The notes beneath the pieces are model-generated. The model was not told the DNA's origin. It saw only the letters and a list, made by a program, of their open reading frames with translations, and did no database searches. 64,000 nt of DNA, taken from sequence record PZ019085.1. The stretch is one strand, 5' to 3'. Numbering within the stretch: position 1 is the first letter of the stretch; each line of letters begins with the position of its first letter. Both the position numbers and the translations under genes were made by a program. Positions 1,746-55,040 of this stretch are shown in pieces. The DNA comes from a phage.

Positions 1746-2159
1746 ATGACCCGTATCAATTTAACACTTGTTTCTGAACTGACCGACCAACATCTTATGG
1801 CAGAGTATCGTGAATTACCACGCGTATTTGGTGCAGTCCGTAAACATGTTCAAAACGGTAAACGTGTAAAGGATTTTAAAATCTCTCCAACATTTATCTT
1901 AGGCACAGGTCACGTAACATTCTTTTACGACAAACTCGAATTTTTACGTTTACGTCAAATCGAGCTAATCGCTGAATGCTTGAAACGTGGTTTCAAAATC
2001 AAGGACACGACTGTCCAGGATATTTCCGACATCCCTGCCGAATTTCGTAATAATTATGTCCCGTCCGAAGCGTCCATTGCGATAAGTCAAGCTCGCTTAG
2101 ATGAAAAAATTGCTCAACGTCCTACTTGGTACAAATACTATGGTAAATCAATTTACTAA
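1746..2159 (+). CDS. denV: Endonuclease V, pyrimidine-dimer DNA glycosylase
   Basis: [34 protein letters not shown]... closely matches T4 DenV. Confidence 0.95.
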
Positions 2160-2165
2160 GGAAAA

Positions 2166-2426
2166 ATGAAAATGTATCAAGAATTTATCGCTGAAGCAGA
2201 TGACAAAGGTCCTAAATTTAAAGTTAAAGCTTTCATTGGTGATGCGGAAGACTTTGGCTCATTAAAACGTAATGGGTATTTTTTCTTAGGTGGCGATGGT
2301 AAAGAAATCAACACCTATGCAAAACGTAGTGAAATTGCTTATGTTGTAGCAAGCCCTAAAGTAGATGTTGACGATATTGGATACGATTTTAACAACTTCG
2401 GAATTATTTCTGGCGGTAAAGCTTAA
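2166..2426 (+). CDS. Internal protein (capsid-targeting leader MKMYQEFIAE)
   Basis: Leader motif; located in the ip locus next to denV. Confidence 0.7.
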   Translation: MKMYQEFIAEADDKGPKFKVKAFIGDAEDFGSLKRNGYFFLGGDGKEINTYAKRSEIAYVVASPKVDVDDIGYDFNNFGIISGGKA

Positions 2427-2489
2427 ACGGTTTACGCTTAAGTATTAATATAGTATAATTACTCTATCAAAACAAACAAGGAAACAAAA

Positions 2490-2804
2490 ATGAAAACGTA
2501 TAAAGAATTTATTGCAGAATCCGCCAACCAACGCGTTGAAGGTGGTTATATTTGGATTGAACAAGTTGAGCCGCCGAGCCGCACTTCTACAGGTAAATGG
2601 AAAATTACTGTTGATGGTCCTGGCGGTAAACGTAGGACTCTTAAAGAAATTAACGGGTACTATGAAGAAGCTCTTTCGGATGCAGGAACTTACATGATGC
2701 AAATCATGATTAAAAACCCTGAAAACCGTTTTGCAGCTAAAGTCTTCCGCCGTATTGGTAATAAACTTTATGATGCATACTCTAAAAACTTCCCTAAAGA
2801 ATAA
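2490..2804 (+). CDS. Internal protein (capsid-targeting leader MKTYKEFIAE)
   Basis: Leader motif; own upstream promoter-like element. Confidence 0.7.
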   Translation: MKTYKEFIAESANQRVEGGYIWIEQVEPPSRTSTGKWKITVDGPGGKRRTLKEINGYYEEALSDAGTYMMQIMIKNPENRFAAKVFRRIGNKLYDAYSKNFPKE

Positions 2805-2829
2805 CATAAATTAAAACAATAGGAACAAA

Positions 2830-3159
2830 ATGAAAACATATCAAGAGTTTATCACTGAAGTTACATTATCTGCGGAACAGAAAGCTGCTATCGAAGAAGG
2901 TAAAAATCCCAAAGTAACATATAAAGTAAATAGTAAAGGCGTTTTTGATGACTTGGTTCAAGACCCTGAATTGAAAAAGGCTCTTTCTAAAACTAATGCG
3001 TACTTTGCTCCTAAATTTAACACAGCCGGTGTACTTATTGGATTGGATGTATTCAACTCTAAAGGTGTTCTATCTAATGCCTTTGGTTATGCCGCTAACA
3101 AAATTACCAAAGCCGCATGGGAATCCAATACTAAACAAGCTCAAAAGCCTAGAGTATAA
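2830..3159 (+). CDS. Internal protein (capsid-targeting leader MKTYQEFITE)
   Basis: Leader motif. Confidence 0.7.
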   Translation: MKTYQEFITEVTLSAEQKAAIEEGKNPKVTYKVNSKGVFDDLVQDPELKKALSKTNAYFAPKFNTAGVLIGLDVFNSKGVLSNAFGYAANKITKAAWESNTKQAQKPRV

Positions 3160-3331
3160 TTCTTGCCTAATAAAGGGAAACGCAACCTCTCCTTATGAAC
3201 GTCGAGTCCTCTGAGTGATGTACCTTTTCCAACCTGTAATAAGGTCGAGCGCAATGCGGTAATGGGTTTACATAGCGAGTCGAAGGACATAACATGTGCC
3301 ACGGAATGGCCCAAACCTTAAGAGAAATAAT

Positions 3332-3871: not shown

Positions 3872-4176
3872 TGACCACTATTGAAGTTTTTGAATATTGT
3901 TATAATAGCCAAGTATGCAATAAAAGGGCCCTTGTAGAAAATTACGAGATTTACCATTTTAAACCTAAACGATATCGTTTGACTAAAGGTCCGTTCGCAG
4001 GGCAGCAGGTTCTTTGTACTGCTCCTAATGCACGGTTGATGACTAGTATTCCGCATTTCAAAATGGAATTTATTGATGGACCATTTAAGGGATTAATCAC
4101 TCAAAGTTTAATGGCGTTTAATTCCGACCCATTTTTGATTAAAGAAAAAACTTGGATAAATTTATTTTCTAATTGA
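3868..4176 (+). CDS. Hypothetical protein
   Basis: ORF track; ATG at 3868 overlaps the upstream stop. Confidence 0.45.
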   Translation: MMTTIEVFEYCYNSQVCNKRALVENYEIYHFKPKRYRLTKGPFAGQQVLCTAPNARLMTSIPHFKMEFIDGPFKGLITQSLMAFNSDPFLIKEKTWINLFSN

Positions 4177-4182
4177 GGTTAT

Positions 4183-4545
4183 ATGAAAGCATATCAAATT
4201 CTTGAAGGTGCACATAAAGGCACTATTTATTTTGAAGACGGTACTCAAGCTCGGATTATCGTCTCTAAGACTTTTAAAGAAGACGCTATTGTAGACCCGG
4301 AAATTTTCTACGGTTTGAATGCCCGTGAAATTGAAATTGAACATCAACCTAAAGTTAAAATTGAAGGTGGTCAACATCTGAACGTTAACGTTCTGCGTCG
4401 CGAAACTCTGGAAGATGCAGTTAAGCATCCTGAAAAATATCCGCAGCTGACCATCCGCGTATCCGGTTATGCAGTTCGCTTTAACTCTCTGACTCCGGAA
4501 CAGCAGCGCGACGTTATCGCTCGTACCTTTACTGAGAGTCTATAA
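4183..4545 (+). CDS. Autonomous glycyl-radical cofactor (GrcA/YfiD-like)
   Basis: C-terminal ~65 aa ([59 protein letters not shown]) matches E. coli GrcA with the RVSGY glycyl-radical motif; that half has GC-rich host-like codons. Confidence 0.85.
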
Positions 4546-4769
4546 TGGCTAAATTGATTATAGAAGGGTCTGATGATGTTTTAAAATGTTTTGCCGCCTG
4601 GTTTAGTTGCTCAGGCGAGCAATCATTCGTTGAAGCATTTAGAACGGGTGATATTACTGGAAAATATCCGTCAACCGATATCACTGTACGCGGATATGGT
4701 ATTAATGAGCCTATCCAATTGGTCGAATATGACCTTGCCACCGATGAGGAAATTCCTTATGTCGATTGA
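4545..4769 (+). CDS. Hypothetical protein
   Basis: ORF track. Confidence 0.45.
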   Translation: MAKLIIEGSDDVLKCFAAWFSCSGEQSFVEAFRTGDITGKYPSTDITVRGYGINEPIQLVEYDLATDEEIPYVD

Positions 4770-5025
4770 AGACATCAAAGGCTACAAGCCGCATACCGAT
4801 GATAAAATCAGTAAAGTGAACGCTATTAAAGATGCAGAAGTCCGTCTTGGATTGATGTTTGATGCTCTGATTGAAGAAGCATATATCTTGAAAGAAAACG
4901 AAACAGAGCAACAAACCAAAGAAGATATGGATGCAGTGCAGGCTCTTAAGTATGCTAAGCAACACCTAAAAGAAGCCAGCATGTGGGCATGTCGTGCAGT
5001 ATTTCGACCTGAGGAAAAATACTAA
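4759..5025 (+). CDS. Hypothetical protein
   Basis: Internal ATG of the 4591 ORF, preceded by gaggaaa; overlaps the upstream stop. Confidence 0.4.
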   Translation: MSIEDIKGYKPHTDDKISKVNAIKDAEVRLGLMFDALIEEAYILKENETEQQTKEDMDAVQALKYAKQHLKEASMWACRAVFRPEEKY

Positions 5026-5240
5026 TGGCCTCTACTATTACCGGGTTATTGGACTTTCAAGAAAAGGTCAACAAAATTTGTAGTGAATACTTAAAGTATC
5101 TTGAAGAAGACCTTGAAGATTGTAAGGAAGAAGGCGAAGAAGACTATGCTGACCAGCGTCGTCGCCAAATCGAAGAGATGAGGCATTTCGCCAATATGGT
5201 ATCTAAAGAATCTTGGGCTTTAACTCCATTTTATCAATAA
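5025..5240 (+). CDS. Hypothetical acidic protein
   Basis: ORF track. Confidence 0.45.
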   Translation: MASTITGLLDFQEKVNKICSEYLKYLEEDLEDCKEEGEEDYADQRRRQIEEMRHFANMVSKESWALTPFYQ

Positions 5241-5244
5241 AGTA

Positions 5245-5295
5245 GTTTACTTCTCCTCTAGATGTGTTACTATAGACCTGTCAACTAGAGGAGAA
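5245..5295 (+). promoter_or_regulatory. Early promoter with 11-bp inverted repeat ttctcctctag/ctagaggagaa bracketing the -10 and forming the SD
   Basis: gtttac at 5245-5250; perfect inverted repeat 5251-5261 / 5285-5295; ATG at 5302. Confidence 0.55.
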
Positions 5296-5301
5296 ATCAA
5301 A

Positions 5302-5760
5302 ATGACTATCAATTCAGACGTTTTTATCCGCCGTAATAAACTCCGTCGAATCTTTGAAACGGAGTTCCGCAAAATAAATGCCGGTATAAAAGATGCTGCA
5401 AAGTCTCTTGGACTACCAGGCTTTCATATCAAGTATTCTCAACATCTCTTAGATCGTGCCATCCAGAGAGAAATAGATGAGAACTACGTTTTTGAATTAT
5501 TTCGTAAAGTAAAAAATCATGTTAAAGAAGTTGCAGAATTTTTATCAATGCCGGCACGTCCAGATGTTGATGAAGATTTTGTCGAAGGCGTCGAATATCG
5601 CCCAGGCCGTTTAGAAATAACTGATGGAAATCTTTGGTTAGGACTTACAGTCTGTCGCGAAAATCCAGCATTCAAAATGAAGACTCTTCAATGCAGAATG
5701 GCTATTATTAACAGTAAACGACTACCAGGAAAAGCTTCTAAAGCAGTGATTAAAATCTAG
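5302..5760 (+). CDS. Hypothetical protein
   Basis: ORF track; strong SD. Confidence 0.55.
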   Translation: MTINSDVFIRRNKLRRIFETEFRKINAGIKDAAKSLGLPGFHIKYSQHLLDRAIQREIDENYVFELFRKVKNHVKEVAEFLSMPARPDVDEDFVEGVEYRPGRLEITDGNLWLGLTVCRENPAFKMKTLQCRMAIINSKRLPGKASKAVIKI

Positions 5761-5768
5761 AGGTAAAC

Positions 5769-6311
5769 ATGAGAAAAGCACTACTCGCTGGTCTATTTGC
5801 TCTTTCGTTATCAGCACATAGCTCCGAGCATACTTTTAGTAATGTCCAACTCGATAACTTGAATTATGCTTATCAGTTTGGGGAACAGTTTTCTAAGGAT
5901 GGAAAATTTAAAACGCATGAAAATATGCATAAGAAAGGACTTGGATACATAATGGCCGCAATACTATGGCAGGAATCATCTGCCGGTATTAATCTTAAAG
6001 ATAAGAAAGGTCACCATGCGTATGGAATGTTCCAAAATTATCTACCAACAATGAGGGCAAGAATTAACCAGCTTGGTTATAATATGACTGACGCCCAAAT
6101 TAAGAAAATGCTATCTAAGCGGTCTAATTCAGCCAGATGGGCTTATATCGAATTTTCTTATTGGTTAAATATACATAATGGGGATATAAGAAAAGCTATA
6201 TCCTCATATAACGCGGGATGGAAGACAAGTGCTGGAAGTAAATATGCTTCTGAAGTCCTAGAAAAGGCCAATTACCTTAAATCAAATAAACTACTGGAAA
6301 TAAAAGAATGA
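5769..6311 (+). CDS. Secreted protein, lytic-transglycosylase-like (SLT-like)
   Basis: Signal peptide MRKALLAGLFALSLSAHSS; SLT-like motifs QESSAG ... AYGMFQ. Confidence 0.5.
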   Translation: MRKALLAGLFALSLSAHSSEHTFSNVQLDNLNYAYQFGEQFSKDGKFKTHENMHKKGLGYIMAAILWQESSAGINLKDKKGHHAYGMFQNYLPTMRARINQLGYNMTDAQIKKMLSKRSNSARWAYIEFSYWLNIHNGDIRKAISSYNAGWKTSAGSKYASEVLEKANYLKSNKLLEIKE

Positions 6312-6655
6312 CCAAAATGTTGGCTTTAATAGTTGGCTTGGTTTCATTTAACGCTCTTGCTAATACTACATATACTGATATAACGGAGTATACAAACAGA
6401 ACGGCGTCTGATTATTGTGGTCAAAGTCAAGAGTGTAAAGTAGATTTTTCACAAAAATTGTTATATGCGTATAAAGACGGAGAAAAAGATGGGGCGTCTA
6501 GTAGGTTCAAGGCGTCTACCTTAATTAAAAGATACTATAAAAAATGGCAAATATTAGAATGCTCGGTGGCGGAACCTAAAGATAAGGCAGCATGCAATTC
6601 TATGGTAGACCGTCTAGTTGACTCTTATAATAGAGGACTTGCAGCAAGTGATTAA
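6308..6655 (+). CDS. Secreted Cys-containing hypothetical protein
   Basis: Signal peptide MTKMLALIVGLVSFNALA. Confidence 0.5.
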   Translation: MTKMLALIVGLVSFNALANTTYTDITEYTNRTASDYCGQSQECKVDFSQKLLYAYKDGEKDGASSRFKASTLIKRYYKKWQILECSVAEPKDKAACNSMVDRLVDSYNRGLAASD

Positions 6656-7115
6656 AAACTATATCAAGGGCGATATTGTCGCCCTGTTTTCTAAAGGTAA
6701 TAATATCGCTCATGGGTGTAATTGTTTTCATACAATGGGCGCCGGTGTGGCAGGACAATTAGCAAAGGCTTATCCAAAAATTCTGGAAGCTGATAAACTT
6801 CAAACCGAATTCGGAGACGAGTCTAAACTCGGGACTTATTCGGTTTATGAAAAATATTTTAAGACACATAAAGCTTATTGCTTTAATCTTTATACACAGT
6901 TTGAGCCGGGACCTAATTTTGAGTACTATGCTTTAATGAATTGTATAATAGAATTAAATGAATTCGGAAAAAATAAGATAACAAAGCCTGTAATTTATAT
7001 GCCAAGAATTGGTGCGGGTATTGGTGGCGGAAACTGGGATGTCATCGAAGAGATTTTAGATACGTATTCCACTAAACTAGAAATTGTGATTGTTGATTGG
7101 GAACCATTATTATGA
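6648..7115 (+). CDS. Macro-domain protein (putative ADP-ribose binding/hydrolase)
   Basis: Macro-like motifs GDIVALFSKGNNIAHGCNCFHTMGAGVAGQL and IYMPRIGAGIGGGNW; the track ORF starts at TTG 6618, GTG at 6648 after gagga preferred. Confidence 0.6.
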   Translation: MIKNYIKGDIVALFSKGNNIAHGCNCFHTMGAGVAGQLAKAYPKILEADKLQTEFGDESKLGTYSVYEKYFKTHKAYCFNLYTQFEPGPNFEYYALMNCIIELNEFGKNKITKPVIYMPRIGAGIGGGNWDVIEEILDTYSTKLEIVIVDWEPLL

Positions 7116-7324
7116 ATATACATTATCCACATCCATATGACCCAAAGAATAAGGCAGTAATTATTCGTCAATGGGAACGCATTTGTCGTACCAAATGTCC
7201 AATTAATAGTCCACATGATGTAGATAAAGACTACATCGGAACATTCGTTGAATATACCTTTATTGATAAGAAAGGCCATAAACAACATGTAGAAGAATAT
7301 TGCTTAAAGGTGACATGGCTATGA
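7112..7324 (+). CDS. Hypothetical protein
   Basis: ATG at 7112 overlapping the upstream stop. Confidence 0.45.
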   Translation: MNIHYPHPYDPKNKAVIIRQWERICRTKCPINSPHDVDKDYIGTFVEYTFIDKKGHKQHVEEYCLKVTWL

Positions 7325-7527
7325 GTCAAACAAAAATTCTTACAGGTGCTAAATGCGAAAAATGCGAATGGCCTGTAGTTTTTGCTTTATGCAATGACGA
7401 AATGGCTTGTGATTTTGATTATTGGTGTTACTGTTCGAACAAAGGTTGTAGCAATCATAAAGGTGAAGGGTTTTACTCAGGATTTTACCCTTACCCAGAT
7501 TTCGTTAAAGAAGGTGAACCTAAATGA
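7315..7527 (+). CDS. Cys-rich small protein (possible zinc binding)
   Basis: CEKCEW ... CNDEMAC ... CYCSNKGC cysteine pattern. Confidence 0.45.
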   Translation: MAMSQTKILTGAKCEKCEWPVVFALCNDEMACDFDYWCYCSNKGCSNHKGEGFYSGFYPYPDFVKEGEPK

Positions 7528-7706
7528 AATTAACTAAAGAAGAGAAAGCTAAACTGTTTGAACTTATTCATGACCTATTGGATGAGCAAGCAGCCACCAA
7601 TGCGTACGATGAATATGCTCCTTTAACAGATGAAGAATATCAAGCATTGATGGAATCATTTGACAGGAAAGAACAAGAACTCATTGACTACGTGAATTCA
7701 CTATAA
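7524..7706 (+). CDS. Hypothetical acidic protein
   Basis: ORF track. Confidence 0.45.
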   Translation: MKLTKEEKAKLFELIHDLLDEQAATNAYDEYAPLTDEEYQALMESFDRKEQELIDYVNSL

Positions 7707-7715
7707 GGGACTCTT

Positions 7716-8297
7716 ATGGCTAGTTTAATTTTTACATATGCCGCTATGAACGCTGGTAAGTCTGCTTCATTACTTACTGCCGCACATAACTATAAAGAAC
7801 GTGGCATGGGTGTATTAGTTCTTAAACCGGCTATTGATACTCGCGATTCAAAAGGTGAAATAGTCTCTCGTATTGGTATTCGTCAGGACGCCAATATAAT
7901 TACAAAAGACATGGATATCTTTGAATTCTATAAATGGGCTGCGGCACAAAAGGATATTCATTGTGTATTTGTTGACGAAGCTCAGTTCTTAACTACTGAA
8001 AAGGTGTATCAACTTAGTCGTATTGTTGACGTATACAATGTGCCAGTAATGGCATATGGACTACGAACAGATTTTAAAGGTAATCTATTTGAAGGTTCTC
8101 AAGCATTAATGGCTATTGCCGATAAGCTTGTTGAACTTAAAGGTGTCTGTCATTGTGGTAAAAAGGCCACAATGGTAGCTAGAGTCACGGAAGACGGACT
8201 TCCAATTACGGATGGCAGTCAAATTGAAATTGGTGATACCGATAGATATGTGTCATTATGCCGGAAGCATTGGAATGATTTGACAGGGTTGTTATAA
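7716..8297 (+). CDS. tk: Thymidine kinase
   Basis: P-loop NAGKSASLL, FVDEAQF, C-terminal CHCGKKA zinc ribbon; matches T4 Tk. Confidence 0.95.
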   Translation: MASLIFTYAAMNAGKSASLLTAAHNYKERGMGVLVLKPAIDTRDSKGEIVSRIGIRQDANIITKDMDIFEFYKWAAAQKDIHCVFVDEAQFLTTEKVYQLSRIVDVYNVPVMAYGLRTDFKGNLFEGSQALMAIADKLVELKGVCHCGKKATMVARVTEDGLPITDGSQIEIGDTDRYVSLCRKHWNDLTGLL

Positions 8298-8324
8298 ATA
8301 CTAATATCTAACCAAGAGGTATAT

Positions 8325-8537
8325 ATGCAGCAATTAAACGAAAGACAACTTCGTAATCTTACTGTAACCCAATTGGATGAAATCCGAAGAGAATTAGGAC
8401 ATTCTATTTCTCATTTAAACGAGGATATCCGTCAAACTGGTTCTAAAGCTGATTATACACGCAAGCGCAAGCTGGAAAAATACCTCACAGATGTTAAGGC
8501 CGTCCAAAGGCGAAAAATAAATACTGGCCAAAATTAA
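8325..8537 (+). CDS. Hypothetical protein
   Basis: ORF track. Confidence 0.45.
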
Positions 8538-8549
8538 CAGGAGGCCTAT

Positions 8550-8852
8550 ATGGCCTTAAGAGCGATAGCTGTCATGGCGATGCTGGGGTTTTTTGCAGCA
8601 ACAACTCCTAACGTTGGTACTGCGTACACCGACCCATATTTTGATAACTTTATGGAATCAGGGATTAAAAACGTATATACTTTGTTTGAAATTCAAAATG
8701 TCGAGAATTCTGAAAAATTCTATAAGTATATGGCAAAGCATTACAAAAATAGCCCCTGTGACGATGCATTTGAATGTCATGAACAAGGCATAAAAACTGC
8801 CAGACAATTTGCCGAGTTCATGAAAATAAAATTAGAGCCTACATCTATCTAA
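8550..8852 (+). CDS. Secreted or membrane hypothetical protein
   Basis: N-terminal hydrophobic signal (AIAVMAMLGFFAATTP). Confidence 0.5.
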   Translation: MALRAIAVMAMLGFFAATTPNVGTAYTDPYFDNFMESGIKNVYTLFEIQNVENSEKFYKYMAKHYKNSPCDDAFECHEQGIKTARQFAEFMKIKLEPTSI

Positions 8853-8858
8853 TTTACT

Positions 8859-8887
8859 AGCCCCTTCCTTACGGTTGGGGCTTTTTT
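8859..8887 (+). terminator. Rho-independent terminator
   Basis: Stem agcccc/ggggct with a following T-run. Confidence 0.6.
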
Positions 8888-8897
8888 GCATTTAGCA

Positions 8898-8950
8898 GTT
8901 TACTTCTCCTCAGGTTGTGTTATAGTAGACCTTACTTACTAGAGGAGAAC
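8898..8950 (+). promoter_or_regulatory. Early promoter with inverted repeat (ttctcctc / gaggagaa) overlapping the SD
   Basis: gtttac at 8898-8903; tatagt -10; right repeat arm forms the SD before ATG 8954. Confidence 0.5.
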
Positions 8951-8953
8951 GTT

Positions 8954-9133
8954 ATGACACGTAAAGAAAAGATTTCTAAGTTGATGTTTTTGATTGAAGA
9001 GTACGCTAATGCGGTATCTGATTGGGAAAATGCTCATGGTTGCGAAGATGGAGACATCGACATTAACAGAGCTATGAAAAAGATGGCCGATGCCCACACC
9101 GAATTGCAAATGTATGTTAACGAGATTATGTGA
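8954..9133 (+). CDS. Hypothetical protein
   Basis: ATG at 8954 after gaggag. Confidence 0.45.
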   Translation: MTRKEKISKLMFLIEEYANAVSDWENAHGCEDGDIDINRAMKKMADAHTELQMYVNEIM

Positions 9134-36646: not shown

Positions 36647-37282
36647 ATGAAAACTACACCAATCACTATCGCTATTGACGCAATCGTAAAACAAGCTTCA
36701 TCTCTTGCCACTATGGCTAAAGTAATTAGTCAAAACCCTGCCCGATATAATGCTATTCTTGAAACTCTTCGTCGCCCTGGACTGAGTAATTATGAAAGCC
36801 GAGTAATTATTACAGGTGTTGGTAAGAATGCTAATATTGCAACTAAAGCTTCTGAGACATTTGCTTCATTAGGTATTCCTAGCATGTATTTGAACACTGG
36901 GCATTATTCTCATGGTGACGCAGGATTTATTGCACCTAATGATGTATTAGTTCACATCAGTCGTTCTGGTAAGACTGAAGAAATGATAGGTGTTGCTAAA
37001 CATCTTCGTATGATTCGTCCTCAGGTTAAACAGATTCTGTTACATTGTAACCCTGACATTCCACAAGAATACGAAGCTCTTTTTGATTATACGTTCTGTA
37101 CCGGTATCGCGGTAGAAGTTGACGAGAACTCTTTAGCTCCGACGATGTCTACTACATTGTTGTTAGCGCTTATCGATACGTTCGCTATCAACCTTTCATC
37201 TGAACGTGGATTTACCTCTAATGATTTCCTTAAGTTCCATCCAGGCGGTGCACTAGGTGCCATGTTACGAGGCGAGCAATGA
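36647..37282 (+). CDS. SIS-domain sugar-phosphate isomerase (KdsD/GutQ/GmhA-like)
   Basis: ITGVGKNANIATKASETFASLGIPSMYLNTG...HGD...VLVHISRSGKTEEM matches the SIS-domain pattern of arabinose-5-phosphate or phosphoheptose isomerases; no CBS domain. Confidence 0.8.
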   Translation: MKTTPITIAIDAIVKQASSLATMAKVISQNPARYNAILETLRRPGLSNYESRVIITGVGKNANIATKASETFASLGIPSMYLNTGHYSHGDAGFIAPNDVLVHISRSGKTEEMIGVAKHLRMIRPQVKQILLHCNPDIPQEYEALFDYTFCTGIAVEVDENSLAPTMSTTLLLALIDTFAINLSSERGFTSNDFLKFHPGGALGAMLRGEQ

Positions 37283-37422
37283 AAGCAATAACAATAGGAC
37301 TTTTACTATTGATGCTTGTCATGACTATCTATTGGAGCTTAACGGCTCCAGTAATGATTCCAACACTTGTAATTGGATGGATTATGATTGGACTACAAGC
37401 AAAGTATGAATGCTTTAACTAG
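37279..37422 (+). CDS. Possible 47-aa two-TM membrane peptide
   Basis: MKAITIGLLLLMLVMTIYWSLTAPVMIPTLVIGWIMIGLQAKYECFN; ATGA-type overlap with the SIS gene stop. Confidence 0.3.
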   Translation: MKAITIGLLLLMLVMTIYWSLTAPVMIPTLVIGWIMIGLQAKYECFN

Positions 37423-37463
37423 AATAGTGTACAATACTCCTACTTACCAATGAGGACCACAAC

Positions 37464-39149
37464 ATGAAAAAAGCTGTTATTCTTGGTGCTGGACTGGCAA
37501 CTCGTTTGTATCCAATAACGCATCATATTCCTAAGGTGCTTGTTAACTATAAACAAGACACTATTCTGAGCAATTTGTATACAATTTATTCTGACCTTGG
37601 CGCAGATGAAATTATTGTAGTAGTTCATTCAAAATTTGCTGAAACTGTTCGAGCTTATTGTGAGCAAGAAGGGTTCAATGTGACTATTCGTACAGTTGAT
37701 GAAGCATACGGATCTGCTTATGCTCTTGCTAAATTACACAAAGATTTAGACGGCCATAATGTAATTGTTAACTGGTGCGATATTATTCCTGATTTTGGTT
37801 CATGGTCTTGGAATGTTAACGCAATCTATGTTAAGGGTGACGAATGTCGGTATAATTTCGACGGTGAAAATATCACTAACGTAGGTTCAACAGGTGGTAA
37901 TGTTGTAGGAATTTATCAGTTCAAAGACTGGGAATTCTATATGGGTTCTACCGATGAGGAAATTCATGAATACTGCAAAGGACGTGATTTCGTAGAATTC
38001 CTTTACAGCGGCGCATTCAATAAATCAGAGCTTATGAATATAATTGATTTAGGTGATATGCCTAAACTTGAAAAAGCTCATGAAGTTCGTGAACTTAATC
38101 GTAGTTTTAATGCAGTTGAAATTGGTGAAGAAACTGTAACTAAATTCGCATTAACCGAACAGGGCCGAGCTCTTCAGAAAGATGAGATTTCATGGTATCT
38201 TAAAGTGAAATCAGATTCAGTTCCTCAGTTAGTTTCTGTTAATGAAAATAACTTTGAAATGGAACGCATTAAAGGTAAGCCGGCATTTGAATATATTAAA
38301 TCCAAATCAAGTCTTGCTCGTCCACAAATTGTTGATGCAATTTTAGATGCACTGAAATTCAGCACAGACACTTATTTTGTAAGTCCTGAAACTGTTCGTC
38401 GTGATTTCACTAAAGAATTCTATACGAAAGTTATTGATCGTTGTGAAAGTATTCAACCATTGATTGATTCATTTGGTAAAATCACACATGTGAACTACAC
38501 TAAGATTGGACGTCTGAAGCCAATGCTGAAACAAGCTTTAGAACACCTTATTCGTTATCATAACCGTTCTCAGGGACAGTACTCTGTTATTCATGGTGAC
38601 CCTAACTTCAGTAATACTATGATTACTGATAACGGCGAAGTCAAGTTTATCGACCCTCGTGGATATTTTGGTGAAACCAAGATTTACGGGCCAAAATTGT
38701 ATGACGAAGCTAAAGTGCTTTATGCTGTTTCAGGTTATGATGAATTCAATGCTAATCCGACCTGGGGACAGTTTACTATTGATGAAACAACTTGTAATGT
38801 GACTATTAACATCAATCCATTAATTTACAAATATGGAAAGATGAGTTCGTTTAACGAGTATCATCATTTGGCGGTGGCAATTATCTGGATTGCATTGGGT
38901 GGTTATTTCAAGAATAATCCACTTAAAGCGGTAGCCGCATATTATAAAGGTATGGAACTTCTGACTAAGCAATTACGTAACATGGGCCGTGTACTTCAGG
39001 ACGGCTCTATTAGTTATGACGTAGCAGAACCTGTAACGGCTACTCTGATTACAAAAAATCCTGGTAAATGGGTACTAACTGATAAAGAAACTGGTGTTTC
39101 TTATCGTCCAATCGGTGGCGATATCACTCATCAATGGGAACGAATCTAA
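37464..39149 (+). CDS. Bifunctional sugar-1-phosphate nucleotidylyltransferase / APH-like sugar kinase
   Basis: N-terminal ILGAGLATRL (RmlA/GlmU-type NTP-transferase G-x-G-T-R motif); C-terminal HGDPNFSNTMI ... FIDPRG (phosphotransferase/choline-kinase-like catalytic loop). Confidence 0.75.
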   Translation: MKKAVILGAGLATRLYPITHHIPKVLVNYKQDTILSNLYTIYSDLGADEIIVVVHSKFAETVRAYCEQEGFNVTIRTVDEAYGSAYALAKLHKDLDGHNVIVNWCDIIPDFGSWSWNVNAIYVKGDECRYNFDGENITNVGSTGGNVVGIYQFKDWEFYMGSTDEEIHEYCKGRDFVEFLYSGAFNKSELMNIIDLGDMPKLEKAHEVRELNRSFNAVEIGEETVTKFALTEQGRALQKDEISWYLKVKSDSVPQLVSVNENNFEMERIKGKPAFEYIKSKSSLARPQIVDAILDALKFSTDTYFVSPETVRRDFTKEFYTKVIDRCESIQPLIDSFGKITHVNYTKIGRLKPMLKQALEHLIRYHNRSQGQYSVIHGDPNFSNTMITDNGEVKFIDPRGYFGETKIYGPKLYDEAKVLYAVSGYDEFNANPTWGQFTIDETTCNVTININPLIYKYGKMSSFNEYHHLAVAIIWIALGGYFKNNPLKAVAAYYKGMELLTKQLRNMGRVLQDGSISYDVAEPVTATLITKNPGKWVLTDKETGVSYRPIGGDITHQWERI

Positions 39150-39535
39150 TGCATCGTGTAGAAAACATGCTTAATCTTTGTTTTGATGTCGACGATTGTA
39201 TAACAGAGTGGAATAACAATCGTGATTACGTGAACTTCAAGCCAGACGTCGAAATGGTGTCTGCCATTAATGCCCTGTATGATGCAGGGCATACCATAAC
39301 GCTTTACACTGCTCGTGGTATGAAGTCAGTAGGTCCTGGTCGTATAGCAATTGACATTCTCCCAAGTCTGATTCAGAACTTGGCAAACATTGGCTTGAAG
39401 TACCATAATTTGCTAACACATAAACCAGTATATGATTGGATTATCGACGACAAAGCTATGCGTCCCGACGAATTCAAAGCTCTTATGAATAAAGGCGAAT
39501 TCGAAACATTTAAATCATATAAACCGAATCTATAA
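39149..39535 (+). CDS. HAD-superfamily phosphatase-like protein
   Basis: FDVDDCIT near the N-terminus, TARG, WIIDDKA; size typical of KdsC/GmhB-type small HAD phosphatases. Confidence 0.55.
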   Translation: MHRVENMLNLCFDVDDCITEWNNNRDYVNFKPDVEMVSAINALYDAGHTITLYTARGMKSVGPGRIAIDILPSLIQNLANIGLKYHNLLTHKPVYDWIIDDKAMRPDEFKALMNKGEFETFKSYKPNL

Positions 39536-39589
39536 TAATTTAAGTAAGACCTGCAAAAACCATCGCATAAATTAACGCGAGATGCAAAA

Positions 39590-40750
39590 ATGAATACTTT
39601 TAAAATCGGAACGAATTTTGATTTAGCTCTTCTTGATAAAATCGTAGAGCTCAATAAAACTTATCCTAATAGCTTGATAAACGAAGTATACGGCTCTACA
39701 AGAGAAATGGCTTTTGTAGCAGCCAGACCTGATTTTAGGCTTCCTGACGTTGACAAAAAGATGTTAGAAGATTACGTTAAACGTTGTAATGAATTAGGTA
39801 TTTGCTTTAACTATACACTCAACACGATAAATCCCGGTTCAAAAAGAGAACTAGTTGAGTGGAAGAAGAAAGCTATTCAGGATTATGTTCAGTATCTTTG
39901 GTCAATAGGCGTATGGCGTATTACTATCGCTAACCCTGTTGTTATGGAAATTGTTCGTGAAGTCAATAAAGACATTGAGATTGAAGTTTCAACAATTCTA
40001 CATGTCGATGCTGTAACTCAAATCAAATACTTACATGACCAATACAATATCAAAAAGGTCTGCTGTGGAATTCATAAGAACCGTTCAGTTTCTTTCCTGA
40101 AGCGTGCAGCAGAGTTTTGCAATAAGAACAATATAATATTTGAAGTTCTTGTAAATGAGTTCTGTTCTAATGCTGGTAAAGGGTATACAACACATTGTAG
40201 CTATCGTGACTCTTGCTATATTTTCCATAGTACTGATGTTACAGCTGATGATGCTAAATCCTTAAACGGGTATCCAATGCAACACTGCATTAAAGCTCGT
40301 GATACAGACCCATTTAACTGGTTGAGAACTCGTTTTGTTCGTCCTCAAGATTTGAAACTTTATAATGATATTGGTATCACTCAATTCAAAGTTTCAGGAC
40401 GTACAGGTAGCACAGACTACATTTTGAAAGTTCTTGAAGCATACGCTTCTGAAAAGTTTGAAGGTAATTTGTTAGAACTGTGGAAGCCTTTAGAGACTAT
40501 TTTCACTCTTGAAAACGAAACTGAGTTTTCACATACAGTAAATATTGAAACCTCTTTGTTAGATGGCTTTTTAGAAAAAAGGTGGTTCAGGCATCCAGAT
40601 TTCGATTGTGCTAATGAAATCTGTGGGACGACGTGTACATATTGTGAAAGATATTATAAACGTCAGTTATCTAAAAACGGGTTAGCAGAAAACTCTATAT
40701 CTATTATTGATATAACTAACTCTGATGACGCTTTGAGGTACCCAGAATGA
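39590..40750 (+). CDS. Cys-rich hypothetical enzyme in the sugar island
   Basis: 386 aa with multiple conserved-looking Cys clusters (CANEICGTTCTYC, EFCSNAGKGYTTHCSY); fold not assignable by eye. Confidence 0.55.
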   Translation: MNTFKIGTNFDLALLDKIVELNKTYPNSLINEVYGSTREMAFVAARPDFRLPDVDKKMLEDYVKRCNELGICFNYTLNTINPGSKRELVEWKKKAIQDYVQYLWSIGVWRITIANPVVMEIVREVNKDIEIEVSTILHVDAVTQIKYLHDQYNIKKVCCGIHKNRSVSFLKRAAEFCNKNNIIFEVLVNEFCSNAGKGYTTHCSYRDSCYIFHSTDVTADDAKSLNGYPMQHCIKARDTDPFNWLRTRFVRPQDLKLYNDIGITQFKVSGRTGSTDYILKVLEAYASEKFEGNLLELWKPLETIFTLENETEFSHTVNIETSLLDGFLEKRWFRHPDFDCANEICGTTCTYCERYYKRQLSKNGLAENSISIIDITNSDDALRYPE

Positions 40751-41030: not shown

Positions 41031-41747
41031 ATGGGAAAACATAACACAATGAAATATATCAAAGCCGCAGATTTTCAAACCGCATTTAAAGCAGTCAATC
41101 GTGAAATTTTAGAAAACCCGGAATTCGTAACTGATTCTCGTATTGGACGTTGTAATGAAATTGGGTCTATGACAGTAGTTGTTGACACTCCATCGTCATT
41201 CAAAATGACCGACCCACGTATTAACCGCATCTCTTATGAATATGCCGAAGACTTCTGGAAGTTTATGATTTCTGGTGGTACTGATGCAGAAGAAGCGTTT
41301 AAGGCATATCCTAATGTCGCTAAATTTATTTCTAAACCAAAATCGGATGCTTTGCCTGCAAACTTCAACACTTTCTATGGTCCTCGCATTGCGGCCCAAT
41401 TACCAACTCTTCTAAAAGAACTTAAAGAGAAACCTAACTCTCGAAGAGTTGTGTTCCAAATTCTAGAAAGTTCAGATCAGGCTTTGCTTGATTCGGACGA
41501 AACACTTGAATATCCATGTACTGACTCAGTGACTTATTATATTCGTGATGGTAAGCTTTATACCCACTGTCATATGCGTTCTCAGAACTGTGCTGTTGTT
41601 ATGCAGTTGGATTTTTATCTCCAAGGAAAATTACTTCATTATATCGCTAACGAATGCGGTGTAGAAGTAGGTGATTATACTCATACCATGGTAAGTGCCC
41701 ATGTGTTTGAACGTGATTTTGATTATGTTAAAGGATTCCTTGACTAA
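41031..41747 (+). CDS. 42: dCMP hydroxymethylase (thymidylate-synthase superfamily)
   Basis: PCTDSVTYYIRDGK ... MRSQNCAV resembles the catalytic Cys region of T4 gp42; syntenic position. Confidence 0.75.
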   Translation: MGKHNTMKYIKAADFQTAFKAVNREILENPEFVTDSRIGRCNEIGSMTVVVDTPSSFKMTDPRINRISYEYAEDFWKFMISGGTDAEEAFKAYPNVAKFISKPKSDALPANFNTFYGPRIAAQLPTLLKELKEKPNSRRVVFQILESSDQALLDSDETLEYPCTDSVTYYIRDGKLYTHCHMRSQNCAVVMQLDFYLQGKLLHYIANECGVEVGDYTHTMVSAHVFERDFDYVKGFLD

Positions 41748-48086: not shown

Positions 48087-48380
48087 ATGAAAAAGTTATC
48101 ATTGGCAGCAATCTTACTTGCAGTATCATGTGCACCGGCTCCAGTTACAGCAGGTTATGATAAAGACCTCTGTGAGTGGTCAATGACTGCAAATCAAGAA
48201 GATGTTGAACAACAAATCTTCTCTGATATCATGAACATCACTAAACGAGACCGTCCTAATATGGTTAATAAAGTTGTTGAACAACTTAAGTCTGGCGGTA
48301 TCATGCAGTACAACTATGTTTTGTATTGTGACCCTAATTTCGATAACAAAGATATCGTAACCGAAATCACAGGTGAATAA
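48087..48380 (+). CDS. sp: Spackle-like periplasmic protein
   Basis: 97 aa with signal peptide; GYDKDLCEWSM ... YVLYCD resembles T4 Sp as recalled; position in the 41-61 interval. Confidence 0.65.
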   Translation: MKKLSLAAILLAVSCAPAPVTAGYDKDLCEWSMTANQEDVEQQIFSDIMNITKRDRPNMVNKVVEQLKSGGIMQYNYVLYCDPNFDNKDIVTEITGE

Positions 48381-48381
48381 T

Positions 48382-49032
48382 ATGATTTATTATATGCACA
48401 AAAATGCGCCGTTTAAATATGGTAAATTTCCTAATGCACAATGTTATAATATAACGCCGAATGAAAATAATAATGGATACCATATTGGTGTAATTTTTGT
48501 AATTGTTAAAGATAATGAAATCGTTGCCTGGGCAGATTTTAAAGGTACAACGTATGATGTTAATCCTGTGCCTTTCACGTATTACAATATAATGGATTTG
48601 GCATATGATTATAATTGGTTTACTCATGACACGTTGGCTCATATTGAAGGTGTAGGATTTGACATCTCTTATTCTAGTTATTCACTATGTCCTATGAGCC
48701 GAGCTCACGGTAAAGATGTATCATATCTTTCAATTCGGAAACGTGTAAACTTCAAACGTAGCACAGAGTATGTTGGTGGACTCTTTGTTAAAGATAATAA
48801 AATAACCCGTATTAGTTATCCTTTAAGTGTAGGTCAAAAAGATGTTGATGTTGATTTAGACTTAACTGAAAGTAACATTAATCGTATTGCTTCTGTATAT
48901 TTTGATATCGATGAAAAAATTGTAGTGTGTGGATACGAATTACCACCTGAAGAAAAGGCTGAAGCAATTGAAGTCGAATTAGAAATTTCTGTCGATGACC
49001 AAATATTTAATGCATTTATGAATCGAGGTTAA
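48382..49032 (+). CDS. Hypothetical protein
   Basis: ORF track; very AT-rich codons. Confidence 0.5.
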   Translation: MIYYMHKNAPFKYGKFPNAQCYNITPNENNNGYHIGVIFVIVKDNEIVAWADFKGTTYDVNPVPFTYYNIMDLAYDYNWFTHDTLAHIEGVGFDISYSSYSLCPMSRAHGKDVSYLSIRKRVNFKRSTEYVGGLFVKDNKITRISYPLSVGQKDVDVDLDLTESNINRIASVYFDIDEKIVVCGYELPPEEKAEAIEVELEISVDDQIFNAFMNRG

Positions 49033-53792: not shown

Positions 53793-54374
53793 ATGACATG
53801 TCAATCTGAACTTCAAGAACGCGAATACCTAACAAATCTGATTGATAGCAAATTCACCCGCCAAGAACAAAACATTCTCTGGGCTTGCACTGATTCTAAG
53901 GAAGACCCGGATTTCCACTATGAATTAGACCATCTTGTTCGTAAGCATATGACTTCTACAGTACCAGTAGAACTCTACCGTGGTGTAACTCCAGAAGAAA
54001 TAGAACGTCTTTCACTTCTTTCTGTTGGATGCCATTGGTCTCCTGGACGAGTAACATCGTTCACAACTGATTTCAACACAGCTCGTCAATTCTCTGGGAG
54101 TTGGGAATATCAGACGTACACTATTCTTAGTCTCAGGAATGCTCCATTCATTTTTGATTACTACCAAAACATGGTTAACATTGTACTCGCCGGAAAGAAC
54201 CCTAAGCATGTTATGGAAGAAACGCGTGTTGACGTCCTAGATATGATTGAATCTGAACAAGAGTACATGGTCTCAGGTATCTCTAGATTTGAGATTGTGG
54301 AAATTGAAGAGTTAGAGTATGACCCTTTGTCTCGAGTATACAAAATCATTCACTTAAAGATGTTGAATTTTTAG
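53793..54374 (+). CDS. ADP-ribosyltransferase-like protein (ModB-like)
   Basis: R-S-E triad candidates (LYRG, SFTTD, EQEYMVS); position between soc and dda as for T4 modA/modB. Confidence 0.55.
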   Translation: MTCQSELQEREYLTNLIDSKFTRQEQNILWACTDSKEDPDFHYELDHLVRKHMTSTVPVELYRGVTPEEIERLSLLSVGCHWSPGRVTSFTTDFNTARQFSGSWEYQTYTILSLRNAPFIFDYYQNMVNIVLAGKNPKHVMEETRVDVLDMIESEQEYMVSGISRFEIVEIEELEYDPLSRVYKIIHLKMLNF

Positions 54375-54431: not shown

Positions 54432-55040
54432 ATGTTTATGCCGTATAACGAGTGTGAAATTGAAGAAATGGTTCGTCGTGCTCAAAACCCCGAATATCAA
54501 GATGTATTGCAGTACGAAATTGATAGTCAATTCAGCGACATTGAACAAAGTGTACTATGGCAGTGTATGGAAAACAAGCCAGACTGTATTCAACAGGAGT
54601 TAAGTTCAATCGTTCGTAGAAATTGGACGTCTTCTGTTCCTGAGACAATGTATCGCGGAATCTCTAAGAAAACTATGGCCACACTCGATGATAAAGGCGT
54701 TGGTAGTATTATTAAATTTGACAGAGTAATGAGCTTTAGTCCGGTGTTTGGTGTAGCACGTAACTTCGCTTCATATAATTTTTATGGAACATTTAATATG
54801 TTCTGCATCAAAGATGCACCATTTGCTTTCAACTTCCGTGAACATATGCTTAATATGATTCTGGCTGCACCATCTTGTGAGTTCAATGGAGCTTTCCCTG
54901 AAGCGACAAGACGGTCTAATGCTAGACTTATATCTGACGAATGTGAATTTATGCTCCCTATAGGGACTACACTGCGTGTAGATTCTATTATTCAAGATGG
55001 ACGTTATACAATCTGGAATCTGTCTATTGTCAGTTACTGA
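54432..55040 (+). CDS. ADP-ribosyltransferase-like protein (ModA-like)
   Basis: MYRG, SFSPVF, ECEFML motif arrangement; paralogous to the preceding gene. Confidence 0.55.
   Translation: MFMPYNECEIEEMVRRAQNPEYQDVLQYEIDSQFSDIEQSVLWQCMENKPDCIQQELSSIVRRNWTSSVPETMYRGISKKTMATLDDKGVGSIIKFDRVMSFSPVFGVARNFASYNFYGTFNMFCIKDAPFAFNFREHMLNMILAAPSCEFNGAFPEATRRSNARLISDECEFMLPIGTTLRVDSIIQDGRYTIWNLSIVSY

What the first reader, a model, noticed from the sequence alone, without database searches (positions are those of the whole stretch)
6648..7115. Macro-domain protein in a phage that also encodes ADP-ribosyltransferases
Macro domains bind or hydrolyse ADP-ribose modifications. In a phage it could erase host defensive ADP-ribosylation (DarT-type DNA modification), degrade ADP-ribose-derived signals, or tune the phage's own Mod-type ADP-ribosylation of host proteins.
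Basis: partly seen in the sequence, partly recalled or inferred. Interest (0 to 1): 0.65.

Follow-up and report, generated by a model that had tools for sequence, protein, structure and literature searches.

The report
Phage T4-type anti-DarT macrodomain (AdfM)
This gene is the RB69-group copy of phage T4 gene tk.4, a small macrodomain enzyme already reported to protect T4 from the bacterial DarTG2 defence that tags phage DNA with ADP-ribose, so the finding is real but already known.

Summary

The gene is the syntenic orthologue of T4 tk.4 (84% identity, no gaps). GenBank records already call it "macro domain protein" or "phosphatase". A 2025 preprint renamed T4 tk.4 adfM: it was the only transposon hit under DarTG2 selection, and a clean knockout sensitises T4 to DarTG2. 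The other two have none.

ModB, ModA and a second anti-DarT gene (AdfA) are also in the window.

My one addition: this family is not a captured DarG. It lacks DarG's C-terminal domain and catalytic lysine. An invariant Gln84 sits at that position, as in Streptomyces SCO6735, which cleaves thymidine-linked ADP-ribose without a lysine. The family is also a different lineage from PhiKZ gp104, which has been given the same name, AdfM.

No enzyme assay on a Tk.4-type protein was found. Verdict: already known, low-to-moderate interest.

The parts
6648..7115 (+). tk.4 / adfM orthologue: a 155-aa, 17.5-kDa stand-alone macrodomain protein (stop codon included in the coordinates)
6633..6637 (+). GAGGA Shine-Dalgarno-like motif, 10-11 nt upstream of the GTG start
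   Evidence: Read directly from the sequence. The same GAGGA is conserved in T4 upstream of its ATG start.
6720..6722 (+). Codon for Asn25, invariant in the family. It corresponds to PhiKZ AdfM Asn23 and to the Asn of the DarG 'VNTVG' motif.
   Evidence: Invariant in 82/82 family sequences and present in 79 of the 80 best bacterial relatives, the last being unaligned at that position. Aligned to PhiKZ gp104 N23. The N23A mutant has reduced de-ADP-ribosylation activity (PMC13309987).
6735..6746 (+). Codons for Met30-Gly31-Ala32-Gly33, the first glycine-rich ADP-ribose-binding loop of the macro fold
   Evidence: G31 and G33 are invariant across the family and across DarG, TARG1 and PhiKZ AdfM. 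Their role in ligand binding is inferred from general macrodomain knowledge.
6897..6899 (+). Codon for Gln84, invariant. It occupies the position of the catalytic Lys of TARG1 (K84) and DarG (K80), and of the essential Gln85 of SCO6735.
   Evidence: Invariant in 82/82 and 80/80 bacterial relatives. The profile alignment places family 'NlYtQf' on BT1257 'NMIGQH' and TARG1 'YLITKK'. BT1257 'MIGQHG' aligns to SCO6735 'MIGQHG', where the Gln is Q85. Q85A and Q85E abolish SCO6735 activity (PMC9411070).
7002..7031 (+). Codons for Pro119 to Gly128 (PRIGAGIGGG), the second glycine-rich (diphosphate-binding) loop. Gly126 replaces TARG1 Asp125.
   Evidence: P119, I121, G122 and G124 are invariant.
6308..6655 (+). 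Context: vs (valyl-tRNA synthetase modifier), the upstream gene. Its stop overlaps the tk.4 start.
   Evidence: ORF. Annotated in related phages. Same order as in T4.
7112..7324 (+). Context: tk.3 (DUF7202), the downstream gene. Its ATG overlaps the tk.4 stop (ATGA).
   Evidence: Pfam PF23832, E 1.2e-37. Junction sequences. Same order as in T4.
53793..54374 (+). Context: ModB-like ADP-ribosyltransferase (193 aa)
   Evidence: PHROG 832 'RNA polymerase ADP-ribosylase', E 4.8e-38. JS09 ModB annotation at the collinear position. YRG, SFT and EQE (R-S-ExE-type) motifs can be read in the translation.
54432..55040 (+). Context: ModA-like ADP-ribosyltransferase (202 aa)
   Evidence: PHROG 832, E 6e-38. 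JS09 ModA annotation. YRG, SFS and ECE motifs can be read in the translation.
48373..49032 (+). Context: AdfA (gp61.2 family), a second, unrelated anti-DarT factor in the same window
   Evidence: Pfam PF23813 'Anti-DarT factor A', E 3.2e-118, full length.

Best explanation
The gene is the Mosigvirus orthologue of T4 tk.4 (adfM). It encodes a pre-replicative, stand-alone macrodomain ADP-ribosylglycohydrolase that protects the phage against DarTG2-type defence.

Proposed sequence of events:
1. The gene sits in a co-directional run, regB, vs.1, vs, tk.4, tk.3 and on to tk, in which vs.1 through tk.2 have overlapping stop and start codons (shown from sequence).
2. In a host carrying DarTG2, the DarT2 toxin ADP-ribosylates thymidines in single-stranded phage DNA and blocks replication (literature).
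3. The macrodomain binds the ADP-ribose moiety through its two glycine-rich loops and hydrolyses the ribose-thymine bond, restoring the base (inferred).

The chemistry is most likely the lysine-independent, water-mediated type described for Streptomyces SCO6735. The family has an invariant Gln84 where DarG and TARG1 have their catalytic Lys. It also keeps an invariant Asn25, matching the Asn whose mutation lowers the activity of PhiKZ AdfM.

What is shown here: the fold, the orthology and the residue pattern. What comes from literature on the T4 orthologue: the anti-DarTG2 role. What is inferred: the enzymatic step and its mechanism.
For: Fold:
- Pfam Macro above its cut-off.
- AF2 pLDDT 96.

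Orthology:
- 84% identity without gaps to T4 Tk.4.
- Same neighbours as in T4, vs upstream and tk.3 downstream.

Function of the orthologue:
- tk.4 was the single HIDEN-SEQ hit under DarTG2, and a clean knockout sensitised T4.
- An earlier paper showed that T4 lacking adfA and adfN stays DarTG2-resistant, predicting a further factor (PMC11825919).
- The only NCBIfam and PADLOC hits are DarG, over its macro part.

Mechanism:
- Q84 and N25 are invariant in 82 family members. In the 80 best bacterial relatives Q84 is present in all 80 and N25 in 79, the last being unaligned there.
- Q84 aligns to TARG1 K84 and to the BT1257/SCO6735 Gln.
- SCO6735 cleaves DarT-made ADPr-thymidine, rescues DarT toxicity, and is dead as Q85A or Q85E (PMC9411070).
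- PhiKZ AdfM removes DarT2-made ADPr from an oligonucleotide, and its N23A mutant is impaired (PMC13309987).
Against: - I found no biochemical assay of any Tk.4-type protein. The T4 authors themselves only say enzymatic removal 'seems likely'.
- The genetic result is for T4, not a Mosigvirus, and was obtained at 30 degrees C in minimal medium.
- The catalytic Lys of DarG/TARG1 and the Asp of TARG1 are both absent: Q84 and G126.
- The features said to make SCO6735 efficient on DNA are also absent. Lys34 corresponds to Ala32, and the basic 'mobile loop' is five residues shorter.
- The protein is acidic, with calculated pI 5.6.
- RB69-group DNA carries a different cytosine modification from T4 (my own knowledge; sugar-nucleotide cluster seen). 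DarT2 targeting could therefore differ.
Confidence: 0.75

Rival explanations
1. The protein neutralises DarT2 mainly by binding and blocking the toxin (stoichiometric 'interaction-inhibition'), not by hydrolysing modified DNA.
For: Catalytically dead SCO6735 Q85A, DarG K80A and TARG1 K84A all still inhibit DarT in vitro, with SCO6735 the strongest (PMC9411070). [quoted passage not shown] No hydrolase assay exists for Tk.4.
Against: The residues that are invariant across phage and bacterial relatives are active-site and ligand-loop residues: N25, G31, G33, Q84 and the GAGxxGG loop. The bacterial relatives have no recurrent neighbour gene in their flanks, so nothing suggests a DarT partner. That pattern points to conserved catalysis rather than a toxin-binding surface. 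The protein also lacks DarG's C-terminal DarT-binding domain, being 155 aa against a 338-position DarG model.
Confidence: 0.1
2. It is a small-molecule enzyme, as the widespread 'phosphatase' annotation implies: an ADP-ribose-1''-phosphate phosphatase or an O-acetyl-ADP-ribose deacetylase. Alternatively it degrades ADP-ribose-derived immune signals such as those of Thoeris. On this reading DarTG2 protection is secondary.
Against: The only phenotype reported for the T4 orthologue is DarTG2 sensitivity. T-even phages are not known to use the Tpt1/KptA pathway that produces Appr-1''-p (my own knowledge). Poa1p has Ser, not Gln, at the Q84 position, and its mutated residue F152 corresponds to G126 here.
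Confidence: 0.07
3. It reverses or tunes the phage's own Alt/ModA/ModB ADP-ribosylation (or ModB RNAylation) of host proteins.
For: ModA and ModB are encoded in the same window. SCO6735 and TARG1 also act on protein substrates.
Against: Alt, ModA and ModB modify arginine (PMC8120803). The characterised members of this macro class act on Asp/Glu esters, phosphate-linked groups and thymidine-linked ADPr, not on Arg-ADPr (general knowledge). The gene lies 46 kb from modA/modB with no shared operon. The T4 screen linked it only to DarTG2.
Confidence: 0.04

Closest known systems
T4 Tk.4 = AdfM (anti-DarT factor Macrodomain; Humolli et al., bioRxiv 10.1101/2025.11.20.689424)
   Same: Same length (155 aa), 84% identical with no gaps. 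Same genomic slot between vs and tk.3. All family-invariant residues are shared.
   Different: GTG start instead of ATG. About 16% of residues differ, for example GIGGGNW against GIGKGNW. The host phage is a Mosigvirus, not a Tequatrovirus. The anti-DarTG2 phenotype has been shown only for T4.
[quoted passage not shown]
   Different: Only 21-30% identity. SCO6735 Lys34 corresponds to Ala32. The mobile loop after the Gln is five residues shorter and lacks the lysines, so it has the same length as in TARG1. The protein is acidic.
DarG antitoxin macrodomain of DarTG2 (PDB 5M31/5M3E/5M3I; NCBIfam NF048014)
   Different: No C-terminal DarT-binding domain. It scores 30 bits against the 250-bit cut-off of the DarG model. 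The catalytic Lys in 'FPTK' is replaced by Gln in 'LYTQ'. No darT gene lies next to it.
PhiKZ gp104, also named AdfM (Morgan et al., Cell Rep 2026, PMC13309987)
   Same: A phage-encoded stand-alone macrodomain that counters DarTG2. The conserved Asn (N23 there, N25 here) is shared. That protein has direct biochemical proof of removing ADPr from DNA.
   Different: A different lineage. Pairwise BLAST aligns only 23 residues. It keeps DarG's 'FPTK' lysine. It is found in 287 phage records, mostly jumbo and phiEco32-like phages; the 25 sampled rows and the ten commonest genus names are consistent with no T-even phages, but the full list was not inspected. The Tk.4 type is found in 2842 records. 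PhiKZ gp104 is imported into the phage nucleus.
Human TARG1/OARD1 (PDB 4J5R) and yeast Poa1p (PDB 6LFQ)
   Different: The TARG1 Lys84/Asp125 dyad is absent, being Gln84/Gly126 here. Poa1p has Ser at the Gln position, and its F152 corresponds to Gly126.

Membership tests
Macro domain superfamily (Pfam PF01661) | Sequence match above Pfam's gathering score, covering the domain | tested here: met
   27.6 bits against a cut-off of 22. Residues 22-136 match model positions 2-117 of 118.
Macro domain superfamily (Pfam PF01661) | Three-layer alpha/beta macro fold | tested here: met
ALC1-like / TARG1-DarG-Poa1p class of macrodomains | Closer in structure and sequence to TARG1, DarG, Poa1p, BT1257 and SCO6735 than to MacroD-type, viral or PARG-type macrodomains | tested here: met
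T4 Tk.4 / AdfM orthologous group | Full-length high identity to T4 Tk.4 | tested here: met
   130 of 155 residues identical, no gaps, E 8e-104.
T4 Tk.4 / AdfM orthologous group | Conserved position between vs and tk.3 in the regB-tk block | tested here: met
   The window order regB, vs.1, vs, tk.4, tk.3 ... tk matches T4.
T4 Tk.4 / AdfM orthologous group | Required for plating on DarTG2-expressing hosts | not testable with these tools
   Shown only for T4. It needs a deletion mutant of an RB69/JS09-type phage.
DarG antitoxin (NCBIfam NF048014 equivalog) | Score above the curated cut-off; macro domain plus C-terminal DarT-binding domain (about 340 aa) | tested here: not met
   30.4 bits against a cut-off of 250. 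Only model positions 4-146 of 338 are matched, and the protein is 155 aa.
DarG antitoxin (NCBIfam NF048014 equivalog) | Catalytic lysine (T. aquaticus DarG K80, 'FPTK' motif) | tested here: not met
   Gln84 in 'LYTQ' aligns with the Lys of 'FPTK' and of TARG1 'ITKK'.
DarG antitoxin (NCBIfam NF048014 equivalog) | Encoded next to a darT toxin gene | tested here: not met
   The neighbours are vs and tk.3. The 80 best bacterial relatives have no recurrent neighbour gene either.
SCO6735/BT1257-type (Gln-type) stand-alone macrodomains | Gln at the position of the TARG1/DarG catalytic Lys (SCO6735 Gln85, essential) | tested here: met
   Q84 is invariant in 82/82 and 80/80 sequences. It aligns to the BT1257/SCO6735 'MIGQHG' Gln.
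SCO6735/BT1257-type (Gln-type) stand-alone macrodomains | Extended basic mobile loop (five residues longer than in DarG/TARG1, with Lys89 and a second Lys) and Lys34 | tested here: not met
   From the Gln to the conserved Tyr is 9 residues here against 14 in SCO6735. The loop here reads FEPGPNFE. SCO6735 Lys34 aligns with Ala32 (plus my reading of those alignments).
SCO6735/BT1257-type (Gln-type) stand-alone macrodomains | Hydrolysis of thymidine-linked ADP-ribose on ssDNA | not testable with these tools
   Needs a gel-shift or dot-blot assay on DarT2-modified oligonucleotides.
TARG1-type glycohydrolase | Lys84/Asp125 catalytic dyad | tested here: not met
   Gln84 and Gly126 occupy the aligned positions.
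PhiKZ gp104-type AdfM | Sequence membership in the gp104 lineage (DarG-like 'FPTK' macrodomain) | tested here: not met
   BLASTP aligns only 23 residues, E 6e-4. hhalign gives probability 96% but 21% identity, i.e. superfamily-level similarity only. The two types appear to occupy separate sets of phages, judged from the sampled rows and genus counts.

The most novel reading that the evidence does not exclude
Phages recruited two separate macrodomain lineages against DarT2, and both now carry the name AdfM. The T-even type was not captured from a DarG antitoxin. It came from a widespread family of stand-alone, Gln-type bacterial macrodomains and works by a lysine-independent mechanism. Like SCO6735 and TARG1, it may therefore accept more than ADPr-thymidine, for example ADP-ribosylated RNA or Asp/Glu-linked protein ADPr. 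It could then also blunt other ADP-ribosylating defences or trim off-target modification by the phage's own Alt/Mod enzymes.
Probability: 0.2. Interest if true: 0.5.

Novelty: already known. Interest (0 to 1): 0.25.

Why it matters
DarTG systems stop phages by ADP-ribosylating their DNA. T-even phages turn out to carry layered countermeasures: AdfA, the NADAR enzyme AdfN against guanine modification, and this macrodomain against thymine modification. Recognising the gene in RB69/JS09-type phages helps predict their host range on DarTG2-carrying E. coli, which matters for choosing therapeutic phages. It also corrects the uninformative 'phosphatase' and 'hypothetical protein' labels in hundreds of GenBank records. 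The observation that the T-even enzyme has Gln instead of the DarG lysine offers a cheap mutational test of the lysine-independent mechanism proposed for SCO6735. None of this opens a new field, because the central question has already been answered for T4.

Tried and rejected
- **Promoter and terminator scan of 4500-9000:** no enrichment over shuffles (15 promoter-like sites against 16.4 expected), so it says nothing about expression.
- **Alternative starts:**
  - The TTG at 6618 (165 aa) has no counterpart in T4.
  - The ATG at 6735 (Met30, the 126-aa CDS annotated in phage JN02) would remove strand 1, the H-x-C-N motif and Asn25.
  - Both were rejected in favour of the GTG at 6648, which aligns with the T4 ATG.
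- **'Captured DarG antitoxin' idea:** rejected. There is no C-terminal domain and no catalytic Lys. The closest structure is BT1257 rather than DarG. The bacterial relatives are stand-alone ORFs of about 155 aa without a conserved neighbour.
- **MAFFT alignment with BT1257 and SCO6735:** it mis-registers those two sequences in the middle of the domain, so I relied on the HMM alignments for the Gln equivalence.
- **LeRoux et al. 2022 (DarTG defence paper):** I tried to read it to confirm that RB69 is not restricted by DarTG2, but it is not held. I leave that point as recollection only.
- **Literature search for biochemical work on T4 Tk.4:** it found only the HIDEN-SEQ preprint, plus an unrelated RIL-seq preprint that mislabels tk.4 as a 'putative thymidine kinase'.
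- **First structure submission:** It was repeated without it.

Full report
**What is there**

The + strand carries an ORF from 6648 to 7115: 155 codons plus a stop. Its GTG start overlaps the stop codon of the upstream gene (GTGATTAA), and its own stop overlaps the ATG of the next gene (ATGA). The ORF is one link in a run of same-strand genes, from vs.1 to tk.2, whose stop and start codons overlap. A GAGGA motif lies 10-11 nt upstream of the GTG. The GTG aligns exactly with the ATG start of the T4 orthologue.

Two other possible starts were rejected:
- The TTG at 6618 has no support in T4.
- The ATG at 6735, used in the GenBank record of phage JN02, would cut off the first beta strand and an invariant active-site Asn.

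**Where the window comes from**

A 2.7-kb stretch around the gene is 99.5% identical to Escherichia phage GADS24. It is 98.5-99.4% identical to JS09-like phages of the genus Mosigvirus, the RB69 group of T-even phages. In its first 10 kb the window has the same coordinates as JS09 from position 104057. The RefSeq CDS JS09_069 ('tk.4 conserved hypothetical protein', product 'phosphatase') has exactly the coordinates 6648-7115. Other records call the same gene 'macro domain protein'.

**Is it a macrodomain?**

Yes, by several independent lines:
- Pfam Macro scores 27.6 bits against a cut-off of 22, over essentially the whole model.
- PHROG 335 matches at 2e-66.
- A profile built from 82 relatives hits solved macrodomains at 4e-18 (BT1257), 7e-17 (TARG1), 3e-15 (SCO6735), 6e-14 (Poa1p) and about 1e-12 (DarG).
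- AlphaFold2 on that alignment gives mean pLDDT 96.0 and pTM 0.91.
- Foldseek against the PDB returns TARG1, Poa1p, DarG, BT1257 and SCO6735 first.

The protein therefore belongs to the TARG1/DarG/Poa1p ('ALC1-like') class of macrodomains.

**The ADP-ribosyltransferase part of the title**

ORFs at 53793-54374 and 54432-55040 match PHROG 832, 'RNA polymerase ADP-ribosylase', at about 5e-38. They sit where JS09 annotates ModB and ModA. R-S-ExE-type motifs can be read in both translations.

**What it is**

T4 has the same gene order: regB, vs.1, vs, tk.4, tk.3, tk.2, tk.1, tk. The window protein is 84% identical to T4 Tk.4 over all 155 residues, with no gaps. It is the orthologue of T4 tk.4.

The A1pp/macro motif in tk.4 orthologues was noted as early as 2006 (PMC1524935). 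In November 2025 a transposon-sequencing study of T4 (HIDEN-SEQ, bioRxiv 10.1101/2025.11.20.689424) reported three things:
- tk.4 was the single significant hit when the library was grown on E. coli expressing DarTG2.
- A clean tk.4 knockout became sensitive to DarTG2.
- The protein resembles the DarG macrodomain; the authors renamed it adfM, 'anti-DarT factor Macrodomain'.

This filled a gap left by an earlier paper. [quoted passage not shown]

The only NCBIfam and PADLOC matches of the window protein are DarG, over its macro part, at 2e-7 and 2.5e-8.

**How it probably works, and what I can add**

The T4 authors infer enzymatic removal of ADP-ribose from DNA but did not assay it. I found no biochemical work on any Tk.4-type protein. 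The residue pattern is informative.

In an alignment of 82 relatives with 36-87% identity to the window protein, the invariant positions are G23, N25, G33, A35, D49, G62, N80, Y82, Q84, P119, I121, G122 and G124.

- **Asn25.** It aligns with Asn23 of PhiKZ gp104. PhiKZ gp104 is a phage macrodomain shown in vitro to strip DarT2-made ADP-ribose from an oligonucleotide, and its N23A mutant is impaired (PMC13309987).
- **Gln84.** It aligns with the catalytic Lys84 of TARG1 and the Lys of the DarG and PhiKZ 'FPTK' motif. It also aligns with the Gln of 'MIGQHG' in BT1257 and SCO6735. After subtracting the 20-residue tag, that Gln is SCO6735 Gln85.
- **What is known about SCO6735.** It cleaves DarT-made ADP-ribosyl-thymidine efficiently and rescues cells from DarT. 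It lacks the Lys and Asp of TARG1/DarG, is inactive as Q85A or Q85E, and is proposed to use a water-mediated, backbone-assisted mechanism (PMC9411070).
- **TARG1 Asp125.** It corresponds to Gly126 here.

The Tk.4 family is thus a Gln-type macrodomain. Its chemistry is more likely SCO6735-like than DarG-like.

It is not simply an SCO6735 copy, however:
- SCO6735 Lys34 corresponds to Ala32.
- The 'mobile loop' after the Gln is five residues shorter and non-basic, the same length as in TARG1.
- The protein is acidic, with pI 5.6.

**Origin**

The protein is not a captured DarG antitoxin. It has no C-terminal DarT-binding domain, scoring 30 bits against the 250-bit cut-off of the DarG equivalog model. 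There is no darT next to it.

A scan of one genome per bacterial and archaeal species found more than 400 loci encoding relatives. Among the best 80:
- All 80 have Gln84, and 79 have Asn25; the remaining one is unaligned at that position.
- 73 are stand-alone ORFs of 150-199 aa.
- No neighbouring gene family recurs beyond what close relatedness explains. The largest set is an ABC-transporter ATPase in 10 loci.

Among phage genomes, the Tk.4 type occurs in 2842 of 50,697 records, including T4-like, Felix O1-like, rV5-like and jumbo phages.

The PhiKZ gp104 type occurs in 287 records, mostly jumbo and phiEco32-like phages. The 25 sampled rows and the genus counts are consistent with no T-even phages among them, though I did not inspect all 287.

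Pairwise BLAST between the two aligns only 23 residues. Two different macrodomain lineages have therefore independently received the name AdfM in the literature. The Cell Reports paper does not cite the T4 work.

**Rival readings**

1. **Toxin binding rather than hydrolysis.** Dead SCO6735, DarG and TARG1 still inhibit DarT in vitro. Against this, conservation is concentrated on active-site residues and extends to bacterial relatives without any conserved neighbour gene.
2. **A small-molecule enzyme.** Candidates are Appr-1''-p phosphatase, as in the 'phosphatase' annotation, or degradation of ADPr-derived signals. This is supported only by the resemblance to Poa1p and a general argument about phage macrodomains (PMC9503650). 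It is not supported by any phenotype.
3. **Reversal of the phage's own Alt/Mod modification.** This is disfavoured because those enzymes target arginine (PMC8120803). This macro class is not known to cleave Arg-ADPr (my own knowledge).

**Verdict**

The feature is already known and annotated, so interest is low to moderate. The residual open points are modest:
- direct enzymology of the T-even type;
- the role of Gln84;
- substrate range;
- whether the Mosigvirus copy behaves like the T4 one.

Noticed in passing
window 48373-49032 (+): A full-length AdfA (Pfam PF23813 'Anti-DarT factor A', E 3e-118; gp61.2 family). The window therefore carries two unrelated anti-DarT genes. In RB69 the wild-type AdfA allele is reported not to block DarT1 until it acquires an escape mutation (PMC11825919). 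I did not check which allele type this copy is.
   Followed up: partly
window 6667-6685 (+), inside the tk.4 ORF: A perfect 8-bp GC-rich hairpin followed by a T-rich tract (AGGGCGATATTGTCGCCCT GTTTTCT), flagged as terminator-like. It begins 19 nt after the start codon. It sits in a 27-nt run that is 100% identical to T4, with no synonymous changes across 8 codons, although the surrounding DNA differs. It could be an RNA element affecting translation or stability, or just codon conservation of YIKGDIVAL.
   Followed up: partly
window 6929-6954 (+), inside the tk.4 ORF: A MotA-box-like middle-promoter pattern (TGCTTTA, a 12-nt spacer, then TATAAT) pointing at tk.3 through tk. The pattern TGCTT-N13-15-TANNNT occurs 32 times in the window against 11.6 expected from shuffles. 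That is consistent with many T4-type middle promoters across this early region.
   Followed up: no
locus L001 (phage JN02, MT782071.1) 4036-4416: The JN02 record annotates the same gene from an internal ATG (126 aa). That would delete strand 1 and the invariant His22/Asn25 motif, so it is probably a start-codon misannotation. Several other records call the gene 'hypothetical protein' or 'RNase III inhibitor'.
   Followed up: partly
window 36647-40750 (+): Between DNA polymerase (gene 43) and a thymidylate-synthase-fold protein at 41031-41747 (probably gp42 dCMP hydroxymethylase) lies a cluster absent from T4. It comprises a SIS-domain sugar isomerase, a 561-aa protein with an N-terminal nucleotidyltransferase domain, and a peptidase-U32-family protein. 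JS09 labels two of them arabinose-5-phosphate isomerase and phosphoheptose isomerase. This is probably the RB69-group pathway for the arabinosyl modification of hydroxymethylcytosine (my own recollection, not checked).
   Followed up: partly
window 6308-6655 (+), gene vs: The gene immediately upstream, vs (valyl-tRNA synthetase modifier), was the most strongly depleted T4 gene in minimal medium relative to LB in the same HIDEN-SEQ study (figure legend). It has no Pfam match.
   Followed up: no
literature (bioRxiv 10.64898/2026.06.19.733364): A RIL-seq preprint on phage T2 lists tk.4 as a 'putative thymidine kinase' whose mRNA pairs with the host sRNA ArcZ. It detects the protein at 60 min of infection. 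The functional label is wrong, since the protein is the macrodomain, but the data indicate that the protein is made.
   Followed up: no
window about 1759-3190 (by collinearity with JS09 locus L002): JS09 annotates a full denV (138 aa) and, 1 kb downstream, a 46-aa 'DenV' fragment. The two flank two internal-protein genes. This suggests a past insertion or duplication at the ip locus.
   Followed up: no
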